In this document: one piece after another, positions 45,001-48,000 of the stretch | Layout of the letters: each line of letters begins with the position of its first letter | Numbering within the stretch: the stretch's first letter is position 1 | Origin: Sphyrna mokarran | Taxonomy: Eukaryota | Assembly (NCBI GenBank): GCA_024679065.1 | Contig: JAGIQG010000005.1 | Location: 68,324,001-68,388,000 of the forward strand | Direction of reading: 5' to 3' | Length of the DNA: 64,000 nucleotides | Position numbers: made by a program

Positions 45001-48000
45001 TTTGCCGACAACTGTCTTAAGTTGAGAATTACAGATCTGAAAAAGAAATGCTATGAATTAAAACTACTGCAAGAGAGACTTTTTTCAAAACTTCAATATA
45101 CCGATATTTTCCAGATAGCTGGTAATGAACTAGAGATTGAAATAACAAGTGCATGAATACAATTTGACTTTAGAAAAAGTGTTAATGGTTCTGGTCTGTA
45201 AGGGTAAACTGTGACAAAAATTCGGCTGTGTCACATTGACATATTTGACAGGAGCTATCTCAGTGTCAGGGCAATAAATACCTTTGTAATCCCAATTGTT
45301 TATTATTTTCTTTGAGCATTGCTCCCATGAGGAGCAAGGAACTACTGAATTTACCCTTCAACATGTTAAATTTCATATATGTTGGAGGAGACTTGTCTTC
45401 AAGATTACTTTTGGAAATCAAATTGTTGTGAATAGAACAGTACTTCTCAGTCGTGGTCTTGGCGGACCTTGTGGTCTCAAACATGCAAGATGGCAACCAG
45501 ACAAGTTGATTTCCGGCCAATGTTTCCTTTGAGTCTGCTTTCACGAGGGGTACAATTACAGCTGTGTAATGAGTATTATTCCCCTTCGATTTCCCACATC
45601 CTGATGGAAAGTTGGCTGATCTCAAGTTTTGCAACAGTGGTGCTGAAATGATGAGTTCATCAGAGGAAGTTTCGCTATCCTACTCTCTGCCCCTCATTGC
45701 TGAATTCTCACAATTAAGCTAGGGGAGCTTATTAAGATGTTCAGTCATGTGTCTGTGTTTAGCGCATGATGTACTGAGAGGGCTTTGGGTTTGTGGATGG
45801 GCAATCAAGCTCTGGCAGCTGTTAACAAGCTTAAGGTTGGCCAAAACAATGTCCTGATTTACTTGGGTCACTTGGTAACTTTGACAGCCGAAGAGATACG
45901 ATATCTGAAAGAGAGGGAGCACAGCAAGGCAGAATATAAATTTGACTTGTGGTGTTCATTTAAATAATCCACTCCAAAATAACAACTAAATAGGGGAAGA
46001 ATGAGATCAGTGAGTCATAGTGTCATAGCTCAAATAACCAGCCAATAGAACTGAGGCTTAGACGTACCAGCTTTTATTTATAAAGACAAACAAATCATGC
46101 ACCCTCAACCAACAACCCTGCTTTCAATCTGTTCTCACATGTAGGCATATAGGAGAGGTCCAGTTCCTAGCCACTACCTAAGCATAGTTAAGCACTTAAT
46201 TTATACACAATTAACACATGGCACCAAAGCAACTTTAGCATGAGGTAGACAACTGTCACAAAATTAAGGCCTGTTCAATGATAACTAAATGTTGCTGGCA
46301 CGTAACTGTCATGAATAGATTGGTTATTGAAACTCATACATACTTATGAATTAGGAGTAGAAGTAGGCCATTGACCCCTTGAATGTGCTCAATATGATCA
46401 TGGCTGATCTGATTGTAAATTGGGTGAGATGCTCTTTTGAAAAGTCAGTGCAGACTCAGTAGGCTGAATGGCCTTCTTTTGCACTGCAACAATTCTGTGG
46501 TTCTATGAGTTTGCTCATATGTTGTCAAATACAAGTGATTTTATTCAGTACTTCTTCTTTGGGCAATTTTATGATTGTAATTGGATCATCTTGGAAATGC
46601 TGAATGGAGATGAGGTGAAGGTCCAGAAGATGGTATGTCAGAGAATGCCCACATCATAGCAGTGACTACTCTTCATTGGCTGTGAAGTGTTTTGACATAT
46701 CCTGAGGTCATGAATGGTGCTATGGAAATGCAAGTTCTTTCTTCAGTCTGTGTGACTAAAACAAATGAGGAGGAAAGCAAAGGGAACGGATCACAGCTGA
46801 GGTTTTGCTTTAATTCCTGCATCTTGAGTAACTTGAAATCTGTTAAAAATGCTGTTCAACTTCTTTCCATTGTTGTGAGAGATTATCATAGTACAGTGGT
46901 TTGCACCAGGATTGAACATTATTCATGTCTGTTTGGTCTTATGTTTGTGCTTTGATTTTTGTGTTTTCTTTTATATTCTGCGGACTGTGCAGCCTAACTG
47001 TTGGTGGGATGATGAAAAGAAGGTCTGCATGCCCTGCCTGTGCAGTCCCATCGGTTCCATGTCACTCCGATGTGACAAAACAGGGCACTGTATCTGTAAG
47101 CCAGGCTTCTTGGGGAAACAGTGTACTCTCAACAGGCAGCTCTATGAGCAGCAGTATGATGAGAGTTCAAAGATGGTGAAAGCTGTTCAAAACCAACGTC
47201 GACGGTGGTGGGCAACAGGCATTGGTGGCTGTCCACGTGGTGCATACAAACCTGTCACAACCTCTGCCAGCGGGGTAAAAGTGCATTATGCCTGTGTGCT
47301 GTGTCTTACTTCGTAATTGTGTAGATTAAGAGAAATGCTTGCATTCCCCTTTTGAGAAACGTGTGTCACACATTTTTTTACTTTTGCTGCTGTACAATTT
47401 TATAGAGTGATACAAGTTAAAAAATTCAGACTGGATTTAATACCAATTTCAACTGATGTTGTGAATGCTTTCTATCTTTTACTGACTACAGCATAACAAA
47501 CATGGACAGGCTTAGTCTAATTTTCATTCAGCAAGGGATCACGCATAACACTGCTCAAAATTTGCCACAAATTTGTTGCATTTATGGTGGAGGGTAGGCA
47601 ACTATTTCAATGGGAAATGTTAATCTGGCGCTGTTGGGTACTGCTCTTTGGGTACAAAACAGTGATTGGGTGCAGAAGATTGACTGTAACTGTTTGCACT
47701 CGAGCTGATGCTGACTCTGAGTGAAATAGCAGAACCATTCCTCTGCAATGGTCACTAAAATGATTTTTGATCGTACCATTACCAATAATTAGGTGGTGAG
47801 AGCAGAAGTAAGAAAAATAACTTTCAAAAATCAAATCACAGAATAAATACTGTCATTTGTAAAAGAGATCATTCTGAGGAGGAATAGAAGCACTTCCAAT
47901 TCCAAATAATATTTGAAAAAAATTCTGCTTCCTGAAGAAATAATTCCAATTCTTTAGTGTCAAAGTAGCTAATCATAACAACCAGCCAAAACACAGCTGA

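What the first reader, a model, noticed from the sequence alone, without database searches (positions are those of the whole stretch)
46993..47274. Hidden 94-codon cassette exon adding an extra laminin-EGF module to LAMA2
Seen: a stop-free 282-nt segment with a good pyrimidine tract and CAG acceptor. Its GGG|GTAAAA donor has the same intronic hexamer as the 5339 donor. It is phase 0 at both ends and sits between two exons that also join correctly without it (..DHCL|SGSY..). It supplies a new C8 for the preceding LE module (KVC) and C1-C7 of a new LE module, which borrows C8 from the next exon, so both spliced forms give coherent LE folds. Knowledge: the canonical 3122-aa human LAMA2 lacks it. 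I recall similar inserts ending GCPRGAY in predicted vertebrate LAMA2 isoforms; this is unverified. Inference: an old, poorly characterised alternative isoform that lengthens the alpha-2 short arm.
Basis: partly seen in the sequence, partly recalled or inferred. Interest (0 to 1): 0.8.

Follow-up and report, generated by a model that had tools for sequence, protein, structure and literature searches.

The report
Conserved optional exon in shark LAMA2
This is a real, very old coding exon of the laminin alpha-2 gene that adds an unusual extra module to the protein's short arm, but database gene models of sharks, bony fishes, amphibians, a gecko and birds already contain it, so it is genuine rather than new.

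Summary
Window 46993-47274 (+) is an open 282-nt segment with cag|CCT acceptor and GGG|GTAAAA donor. It is phase 0 at both ends and lies between two LE exons that also join in frame without it.

It is a genuine LAMA2 exon. The 94-aa peptide matches named laminin alpha-2 proteins at the same position:
- 81-86% identity in five shark species, so the window is from an elasmobranch, not human
- 63% in coelacanth
- 44-60% in ray-finned fishes, amphibians, a gecko and birds

Eight cysteines and the GCPRGAY motif are invariant in 37 of 37 aligned proteins.

The exon has nine cysteines, not eight. About 35 conserved residues, predicted disordered, separate Cys6 from Cys7 where LE modules normally have two.

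"Hidden" is wrong: NCBI and UniRef models already include the exon.

"Cassette" is plausible but unproven for this species. Support is indirect:
- a catfish RT-PCR-validated skipped lama2 exon bracketed by primers in the flanking exons
- a duck model in skip form against an include form in a congener
- a human "LAMA2 exon 21 (LAMA2-206)" event that I could not verify

No paper characterising the module was found. Verdict: already known in annotation, functionally unstudied, modest interest.

The parts
46950..46992 (+). 3' splice region of the exon: pyrimidine-rich tract and CAG acceptor
   Evidence: Read. AG confirmed and 10 of 18 pyrimidines at -20..-3. In unspliced genomic ORF fragments of teleosts, birds and squamates, homology to the peptide starts right after a Q or K codon (CAG/AAG).
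46993..47274 (+). The exon: 282 nt, 94 codons, phase 0 at both ends
   Evidence: Translation. Colinear tblastn match to residues 936-1034, 938-1036 and 940-1038 of three named shark LAMA2 proteins. 81-86% identity by blastp to seven named shark proteins of five species.
46993..47028 (+). Residues 1-12 (PNCWWD...KVC): loop d and Cys8 that complete the LE module begun in exon 44118-44224. Includes the extra Cys at residue 3.
   Evidence: Cys12 invariant in 37 of 37 named LAMA2 proteins. Cys3 present in 30 of 37, Y in 6 (5 sauropsids and Syngnathus) and R in 1. AF2 pLDDT 89-91 here in the whale-shark orthologue.
47029..47124 (+). Residues 13-44: Cys1-Cys6 (loops a-c) of an additional LE module
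   Evidence: Pfam EGF_laminin 28.4 bits (cut-off 21), residues 15-45 = model 1-32 of 49. Cys15, 17, 27, 33, 35 and 44 invariant in 37 of 37. AF2 pLDDT 85-91.
47125..47229 (+). Residues 45-79: 35-residue charged insertion between Cys6 and Cys7
   Evidence: Mean top-residue fraction 0.62, with R48, Q49, R71, W72 and G79 in at least 32 of 37. Predicted disordered: pLDDT below 50 for segment residues 84-113, which are cassette residues 49-78.
47230..47274 (+). Residues 80-94: Cys7 and CPRGAY, the start of loop d. The closing Cys8 lies in the next exon.
   Evidence: G79, C80 and R82 invariant; P81, G83, A84, Y85 and P87 in at least 34 of 37. pLDDT about 60.
47275..47283 (+). 5' splice site GTAAAAGTG (no G at +5)
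   Evidence: 5 of 9 consensus positions. Only this donor and the one at 5339 lack +5G among the 10 donors scored correctly. Exon 63470's donor was mis-set by 3 nt in that call and reads AAG|GTGAGT by eye (ORF).
44118..44224 (+). Upstream constitutive LE exon (Cys1-Cys7), ends ..CDHCL in phase 0
   Evidence: 79-89% identity to shark LAMA2.
53199..53376 (+). Downstream constitutive exon. Starts SGSYLHSSRGC (loop d and Cys8 for whichever module precedes it), then a full LE module with NSFGSKSFDC.
   Evidence: 95-98% identity to shark LAMA2.

Best explanation
The segment is a genuine protein-coding exon of the laminin alpha-2 gene (LAMA2) of an elasmobranch. It is orthologous to an exon already built into database LAMA2 models from sharks to birds.

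What inclusion does (partly shown, partly inferred). It inserts 94 residues into the LEb rod of the short arm.
- Residues 1-12 finish the preceding LE module.
- Residues 15-44 give Cys1-Cys6 of an extra LE module.
- Residues 45-79 are a conserved, charged loop of about 35 residues, predicted disordered. It sits where LE modules normally have two residues.
- CPRGAY starts loop d. Cys8 in the next exon closes it.

What skipping does (shown by sequence). It joins 44224 to 53199 in frame, and the first residues of the next exon then complete the upstream module.

Inferred, not shown here:
- The exon is used alternatively. This is likely but unproven for this species.
- Inclusion lengthens the rod by one module and adds an exposed loop.
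- In non-amniotes and the window, inclusion also adds an unpaired cysteine.
For: Gene context:
- Eleven + strand exons in the window are colinear with residues about 612-1223 of three named shark LAMA2 proteins at 70-98% identity. The segment is the eighth of them.

Orthology of the peptide:
- 81-86% identity to Rhincodon, Stegostoma, Chiloscyllium, Hemiscyllium and Heptranchias laminin alpha-2.
- 63% to Latimeria and 47-60% to 14 further named fishes and amphibians.
- 44-46% to a gecko and four birds.
- In every case it lies between the same two flanking exons.

Breadth in databases:
- Croaker module as query: 105 of 112 candidates at E<=1e-5, and 103 of those 105 cover at least 96% of it.
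- Coelacanth module as query: 42 of 43 candidates, coverage 92-100%.
- Unbiased HMMER scan of 1.84 billion representatives: 237 hits at E<=1e-3. Of the 150 listed, 25 cover the whole peptide and the rest only the LE part.
- The genomic ORF fragments lose homology exactly at AG and GT.

Constraint:
- Eight Cys plus G79 and R82 are invariant in 37 of 37 named proteins.
- Column conservation is 0.71 for the exon, against 0.74 and 0.83 for the flanking exons.
- Per-exon identity to other taxa is in the range of constitutive exons E1 and E11.

Fold:
- AF2 of whale-shark residues 901-1090 gives pLDDT 83-91 through the first 48 residues of the module. Best Foldseek hits are LE tandems 1npe_B and 1klo, netrins and laminin beta1.

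Alternative use:
- The exon is 282 nt, phase 0 at both ends.
- The Anas zonorhyncha UniRef model carries the skip junction, while Anas acuta isoform X1 carries the module.
- In the catfish Leiocassis, a lama2 skipped exon was RT-PCR-validated (PMC13360135, passages and section 3.9). The reverse primer encodes FGSKSF, the motif of the downstream exon. The forward primer encodes YGGPNCE. That motif type lies 161-170 residues upstream of FGSKSF in teleost LAMA2. Only the 107-nt exon and this module lie between the primers.
Against:
- The named proteins are mostly computational gene models. They show annotation, not expression.
- The catfish skipped exon is 234 nt (78 codons), while the module is about 88 residues in the nearest named relatives. 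Identity of the two therefore rests on primer positions alone.
- The module fails the canonical LE Cys6-x2-Cys7 spacing and has an odd cysteine count.
- The linker and the loop to Cys8 are modelled with pLDDT below 50. Only one of the five AF2 models reached mean pLDDT 70; the others were 42-57.
- Foldseek TM-scores are only 0.25-0.30.
- The splice sites are ordinary to weak but not distinctive.
- No mammal appears among the named hits. That may reflect the word index rather than absence.
Confidence: 0.8

Rival explanations
1. It is a constitutive exon in this shark, and perhaps in most non-mammals. It is always included, and skipping is confined to some lineages or is an annotation difference.
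For: - All seven named shark LAMA2 proteins retrieved, from five species (isoforms X1, X2 and X3 among them), contain it.
- The two shark isoform pairs compared differ elsewhere, by a 46-aa LE module near residue 1602 and a 4-aa insert, not at this exon.
- Conservation is close to that of neighbouring constitutive exons.
Against: - The searches used the module as query, so skip isoforms could not be retrieved. Their absence from the lists means nothing.
- The downstream exon keeps a complete loop-d start (SGSY.. in the window, [PS]GT[YF].. in other non-teleosts). That start is redundant if CPRGAY is always present.
- A skip-form duck model exists, and a skipped lama2 exon was validated in a catfish.
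Confidence: 0.28
2. It is a conserved ORF copied into gene models by homology-based annotation but rarely or never spliced into mature mRNA (an annotation artefact or a decaying relic).
For: - Most named hits are predicted models.
- The donor lacks +5G and matches 5 of 9 consensus positions.
- Open frames of 94 codons or more are common in the window (46).
Against: - An unused relic would not keep eight cysteines, the GCPRGAY motif, an open frame and both splice sites from sharks to birds.
- Homology stops at the splice sites in unspliced fragments.
- One fragment, P0015, joins the upstream LE exon to the module, as a spliced product or a gene model would.
Confidence: 0.04

Closest known systems
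The same module in named shark laminin alpha-2 models (NCBI: Rhincodon typus 'laminin subunit alpha-2-like', Stegostoma tigrinum isoform X2, Chiloscyllium punctatum X1/X2, Hemiscyllium ocellatum X2, Heptranchias perlo X2/X3)
   Same: Same position between the same flanking exons. Same 94-residue length, nine cysteines, QRRRWW and GCPRGAYKP motifs. 81-86% identity.
   Different: A different species: no 100% match was seen. Whether this species' own annotation includes the exon could not be looked up.
Canonical laminin-type EGF-like (LE) module, Pfam PF00053. Solved tandems 1KLO and 1NPE.
   Same: Cys1-Cys6 spacing and the conserved Gly residues. Pfam score above the cut-off. Confident LE-like model for loops a-c, with LE tandems as the best structural matches.
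   Different: 35 residues instead of about 2 between Cys6 and Cys7. Only model positions 1-32 of 49 match. Loop d is long and split across two exons. There is an extra cysteine at residue 3 in 30 of 37 orthologues.
LE modules interrupted by an inserted domain (L4 / LF domains, e.g. laminin beta2 LE5-LF-LE6, PDB 5LF2)
   Same: An LE module whose disulfide framework is kept while extra sequence is looped out. 5lf2_B is among the Foldseek hits.
   Different: As I recall, not tested here, those insertions are folded domains of about 200 residues placed between Cys3 and Cys4. Here the insertion is about 35 residues, predicted disordered, and lies between Cys6 and Cys7.
Other alternatively used LAMA2 exons: a 46-aa LE module near residue 1602 and a 4-aa insert in shark isoforms; human 'exon 44' and 'exon 53' events
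   Same: A whole LE module removed or added in frame in NCBI shark isoform pairs. Regulated LAMA2 exons are listed in figure legends of bioRxiv 10.1101/2025.03.21.642423 (passages).
   Different: Different exons, outside this window. None carries the long Cys6-Cys7 insertion.

Membership tests
LAMA2 (laminin subunit alpha-2), LEb region | Exon-by-exon colinearity with named LAMA2 proteins | tested here: met
   Eleven exons (5128-63721) are colinear with residues about 612-1223 of Chiloscyllium X1, Heptranchias X2 and Stegostoma X2 at 70-98% identity.
LAMA2 (laminin subunit alpha-2), LEb region | The module sits between the same two exons in orthologues | tested here: met
   In all 30 named proteins inspected that carry the module, it follows ..C-x2-C-x and precedes the exon holding NSFGSKSFDC. 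These were 15 of the 17, where Anas zonorhyncha and a tick protein lack it, and 15 of 15.
Laminin-type EGF-like (LE) module, PF00053 | Profile score above the curated cut-off | tested here: met
   28.4 bits against a cut-off of 21, but only residues 15-45 = model positions 1-32 of 49.
Laminin-type EGF-like (LE) module, PF00053 | Eight cysteines with canonical spacing, including Cys6-x2-Cys7 | tested here: not met
   Nine cysteines in the exon. 35 residues separate Cys44 from Cys80, and this spacing class is conserved in 37 of 37 orthologues.
Laminin-type EGF-like (LE) module, PF00053 | LE three-dimensional fold | tested here: inconclusive
   AF2 of the whale-shark orthologue in its natural context gives pLDDT 83-91 for loops a-c. 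It falls below 50 for the linker and for the loop to Cys8. Foldseek top hits are LE tandems, but TM is only 0.25-0.30. Disulfide pairing could not be read out.
Cassette (alternatively skipped) exon | Length divisible by 3 with the same phase at both ends, so that skipping keeps the frame | tested here: met
   282 nt, phase 0 at both ends. The 44224|53199 junction reads ..DHCL|SGSY...
Cassette (alternatively skipped) exon | Both include and skip forms seen in transcripts of this species | not testable with these tools
   No transcript or read data are available. The species itself is not identified.
Cassette (alternatively skipped) exon | Both forms seen in another species | tested here: inconclusive
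   A skip-form UniRef model in Anas zonorhyncha against an include-form NCBI model in Anas acuta. A catfish lama2 skipped exon was validated by RT-PCR with primers in the flanking exons, but its 234-nt length could not be matched to sequence.

The most novel reading that the evidence does not exclude
The exon is a regulated cassette present across jawed vertebrates, and it persists in mammals. Three claims follow.
- In humans it would be the non-canonical "LAMA2 exon 21 (LAMA2-206)" that changes between iPSC-cardiomyocytes and embryonic and fetal heart. In a catfish it would be the exon induced by starvation.
- Its conserved 35-residue loop and, in non-amniotes, its unpaired cysteine would give the laminin-211 short arm a binding or cross-linking function that the canonical isoform lacks.
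- Because it lies outside the canonical transcript, it would be a blind spot in LAMA2 muscular-dystrophy diagnostics.
Probability: 0.22. Interest if true: 0.6.

Novelty: already known. Interest (0 to 1): 0.3.

Why it matters
LAMA2 is the gene of the commonest congenital muscular dystrophy. As I recall, its short arm is usually described with a fixed set of LE modules.

This check shows that a further, atypical LE module is encoded by a deeply conserved exon in sharks, bony fishes, amphibians, a gecko and birds. Public gene models carry it, yet none of six literature searches found a study of it.

For this window the practical result is simple: the exon is real and should be annotated. It is not a discovery.

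Wider value would arise only if regulated inclusion and a function of the conserved loop were shown, or if the mammalian counterpart were confirmed.

Tried and rejected
Searches and scans that gave nothing useful:
- Word-index search with the peptide against proteins of 166-2000 aa: 4 candidates, none significant.
- ESM Atlas look-alikes: only generic EGF clusters, scores 0.88 or lower.
- Rfam over the whole window: 0 matches.
- Tandem repeats: two short arrays far from the exon.
- Long ORFs: only two of 170 aa or more, neither related.

Calls that could not be made:
- The listing of cluster members for names of unnamed hits: not sent, because the shared database is off. Names came later.
- A long in-frame stretch of the window as query, with the exon as 'region', to reach full-length relatives of this species: rejected because the translation has 108 stops. 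I did not pursue it. The named coelacanth protein was used as query instead. So the window's own species, and whether its annotation holds the exon, stay unknown.

Papers with nothing on this exon (passages only):
- PMC8000258, PMC10925193, PMC10715503 and PMC6407525 (the last gives only Cys862 = exon 19).

Ideas dropped:
- That the 105-residue spacing of human Cys862 (exon 19) and Cys967 (exon 21) proves the canonical protein is the skip form. The module's own cysteines (12, 15, 17) mimic those of the next exon, so the spacing fits both forms.
- That the catfish 234-nt exon is the homologue of window exon 63470-63703, which is also 234 nt. That exon lies downstream of the reverse primer.

Not run: complex prediction, because no binding claim is made.
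Full report
**1. What is in the sequence**

The window has no N, is 38% G+C and has a CpG ratio of 0.21. No Rfam family reaches threshold.

Positions 46993-47274 on the + strand translate without a stop into 94 residues. The acceptor is ...gactgtgcag|CCT and the donor is GGG|GTAAAA. 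The donor at 5339 has the same intronic hexamer.

The neighbouring LE exons are 44118-44224, which ends TTG|GTAGGT in phase 0, and 53199-53376, which starts tag|AGT in phase 0. Without the segment they join in frame as ..DHCL|SGSY...

- The peptide has nine cysteines, at residues 3, 12, 15, 17, 27, 33, 35, 44 and 80.
- Cys44 and Cys80 are 35 residues apart.

Pfam EGF_laminin scores 28.4 bits (cut-off 21), but only over residues 15-45, which are model positions 1-32 of 49.

An open frame of this size is not rare here. The window holds 46 frames of 94 aa or more, against 14.3 in shuffles. Openness alone is weak evidence.

**2. How the work was constrained**

I did not build or search a joined (spliced) model of the window. 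Wherever spliced context was needed, I took it from natural, named reference proteins.

I take the window for an elasmobranch, not human (section 3). No contig was fetched.

**3. The gene and the organism**

Eleven + strand exons between 5128 and 63721 are colinear with residues about 612-1223 of three named shark laminin alpha-2 proteins at 70-98% identity. The segment is the eighth of them.

The peptide's identity to named shark proteins:

| Species | Identity |
|---|---|
| Rhincodon typus | 86% |
| Stegostoma tigrinum | 85% |
| Chiloscyllium punctatum | 83% |
| Hemiscyllium ocellatum | 82% |
| Heptranchias perlo | 81% |

Other taxa are far lower. The window is therefore LAMA2 of a shark or ray that is not among the hits.

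**4. Is the exon real?**

*Unbiased scan.* A HMMER scan of the peptide against 1.84 billion cluster representatives gave 237 hits at E<=1e-3 and 34 at E<=1e-10. Of the 150 listed, 25 cover essentially the whole peptide at 43-55% identity, and one more covers residues 23-90. The rest match only the LE part.

*Boundaries.* Most of the 25 are short genomic ORFs. In them, homology begins right after a CAG or AAG codon and ends at G|GT. The conserved block therefore has exactly the exon's boundaries.

*Named proteins.*
- With the croaker module as query, 105 of 112 candidates scored E<=1e-5, and 103 of those 105 cover at least 96% of it.
- With the coelacanth module as query, 42 of 43 candidates scored, with 92-100% coverage.
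- The hits are NCBI or UniRef "laminin subunit alpha-2" models, many labelled isoform X. They come from teleosts, bowfin, gar, sturgeon, bichir, coelacanth, a caecilian, newts, many frogs including Xenopus tropicalis, a gecko, four birds and the five sharks.
- In the 30 module-bearing proteins I inspected, the module lies between the same two exons.

*Conservation.* I aligned 37 named proteins with the whale-shark segment.
- Cys12, 15, 17, 27, 33, 35, 44 and 80, together with G79 and R82, are invariant.
- P81, G83, A84, Y85 and P87 are present in at least 34 of 37.
- Mean column conservation is 0.71 for the module, against 0.74 and 0.83 for the two flanking exons.
- Within the module it is 0.75 for the LE part, 0.62 for the linker and 0.78 for the CPRGAY end.
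- Per-exon identity of the window to other taxa puts the module at the low end of its constitutive neighbours, similar to the L4a exon and to exon 63470.

A chance ORF or a dead relic would not show this pattern.

*Paralogues.* Apart from LAMA2-type proteins, no long protein matched beyond the LE part. A tick "wing blister" protein matched only 44% of the module. I therefore saw no sign of the module in laminin alpha-1 or in invertebrate alpha chains, at the level of cluster representatives.

**5. What the module looks like**

I folded whale-shark residues 901-1090 with the 38-row alignment. The segment covers the upstream LE, the module and the downstream LE in natural context.
- Mean pLDDT of the best model is 70.4. 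The other four models reach only 42-57.
- pLDDT is 83-91 through the upstream LE and the first 48 residues of the module.
- It falls below 50 for segment residues 84-113 (the linker) and 125-139 (the tail of the module and the start of the next exon).
- It is about 60 at GCPRGAY and 76-84 for the downstream LE.

The best Foldseek matches in the PDB are LE tandems: 1npe_B, 1klo, netrin-1, laminin beta1 LN-LE1-4 and laminin beta2 LE5-LF-LE6. E-values run down to 3.7e-7, but TM-scores are only 0.25-0.30.

My reading of the parts:
- Residues 1-12 complete the preceding LE (loop d and Cys8).
- Residues 15-44 form loops a-c of an extra LE.
- Residues 45-79 are a conserved, charged loop, probably flexible.
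- CPRGAY begins loop d, which the first cysteine of the next exon closes.

The disulfide pairing is inferred, not shown.

Cys3 is present in 30 of 37 orthologues. It is Y in the gecko, the four birds and Syngnathus, and R in Kryptolebias. It is therefore not needed for the fold, and it leaves an odd cysteine count in sharks, most fishes and amphibians.

**6. Cassette or constitutive?**

This could not be tested for this species. The indirect evidence is as follows.

*Architecture.* The exon is 282 nt and phase 0 at both ends. The next exon begins with a complete loop-d start. It reads SGSY.. in the window and [PS]GT[YF].. in other non-teleosts, which is redundant when CPRGAY is present.

*Duck models.* A UniRef model of Anas zonorhyncha carries the skip junction, while the NCBI isoform X1 of Anas acuta carries the module. 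Both are gene models.

*Catfish.* PMC13360135 (passages and section 3.9) reports a lama2 skipped exon in Leiocassis longirostris larvae.
- It is 234 nt, with an inclusion difference of 0.693 between starvation stages, validated by RT-PCR.
- The reverse primer's complement encodes FGSKSF, the invariant motif of the downstream exon.
- The forward primer encodes YGGPNCE. That motif type lies 161-170 residues upstream of FGSKSF in teleost LAMA2, in the exon equivalent to 39930-40141.
- Only the 107-nt exon and the module lie between the primers, so the skipped exon is most likely this module.
- Against this, 78 codons is shorter than the roughly 88 residues in the nearest named relatives, and I could not see the catfish sequence.

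*Splice sites.* The donor lacks +5G and matches 5 of 9 consensus positions. Among the 10 donors scored correctly, only this one and the 5339 donor lack +5G. The acceptor has 10 of 18 pyrimidines. This is ordinary to weak and not diagnostic.

*Against.* All seven shark proteins retrieved, from five species, include the module. The two isoform pairs compared differ elsewhere. However, my queries could only retrieve module-bearing proteins.

**7. Mammals and humans**

No mammal is among the named hits. The word index may explain this, so it is not evidence of absence.

Six unnamed fragments (P0011, P0013, P0014, P0019, P0020, P0024) cover the exon but match none of the named groups. They could be mammalian and conceivably human. 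I left them unused after that point and did not trace them. The mammalian status therefore stays unchecked.

From papers (passages only):
- Human p.Cys862 is in exon 19 (PMC6407525).
- Human p.Cys967 is in exon 21 (PMC6083551).
- Dog p.W1046* is in exon 22 (PMC10454810).

The dog position fits the tryptophan 36 residues into the exon after the NSFGSKSFDC exon, if that exon is number 21. That means mammalian reference numbering follows the skip form. This is an inference with a tolerance of a few residues.

A figure legend of bioRxiv 10.1101/2025.03.21.642423 lists "LAMA2 exon 21 (LAMA2-206)" among exons spliced differently in iPSC-cardiomyocytes and in embryonic and fetal hearts. Its other LAMA2 events are named on LAMA2-201. 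An extra exon between canonical exons 20 and 21 would be number 21 in a transcript that holds it. This is a lead only. Figures and supplements were not available, and I handled no human sequence.

It was not tested here.

**8. Literature**

Six full-text searches found no paper that describes or characterises this module. The catfish paper does not say which domain its exon encodes.

**9. Verdict**

- It is wrong on "hidden", because public models already contain the exon.
- It is unproven on "cassette" for this species.
- It is imprecise on the module's anatomy, which has nine cysteines and a 35-residue Cys6-Cys7 insertion.

Novelty: already known in annotation. The function is unstudied, which gives it modest interest.

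Noticed in passing
named proteins P0262 vs P0261 (about residue 1602) and P0264 vs P0263 (about residues 1604 and 2553); outside the window: NCBI shark LAMA2 isoform pairs differ by an in-frame 46-residue LE module. In Heptranchias they also differ by a 4-residue insert. Whole-module alternative use therefore seems to occur elsewhere in the gene.
   Followed up: partly
window 46999-47001 (cassette residue 3): An extra cysteine in PNCWWD gives the included form an odd cysteine count. It is kept in 30 of 37 named orthologues and replaced by Y in the gecko, four birds and Syngnathus, and by R in Kryptolebias. Whether it is free or forms an intermolecular bond is unknown.
   Followed up: partly
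window 47026-47031: The hexamer TGCATG lies inside the exon, over the codons for Cys12-Met13. As I recall, this is the RBFOX-type motif. Its meaning there, if any, was not examined.
   Followed up: no
window 24910-24929: The acceptor of the constitutive exon 24930-25016 has only 6 of 18 pyrimidines at -20..-3. That is weaker than the candidate exon's acceptor.
   Followed up: no
window 56001-60000: GC skew swings from +0.20 (56-58 kb) to -0.21 (58-60 kb) in the intron before exon 63470. It is unexplained. A 26-nt tandem repeat lies at 56144-56198.
   Followed up: no
window 23306-23836 and 53565-54146: These are the two longest stop-to-stop frames of the window (176 and 193 aa, + strand, intronic). 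They have no obvious coding character and were not searched.
   Followed up: no
window 63470-63703: This constitutive exon is 234 nt, the same length as the catfish skipped exon. It lies downstream of that paper's reverse primer, so I treat the match as coincidence. Its donor was mis-set by 3 nt.
   Followed up: yes
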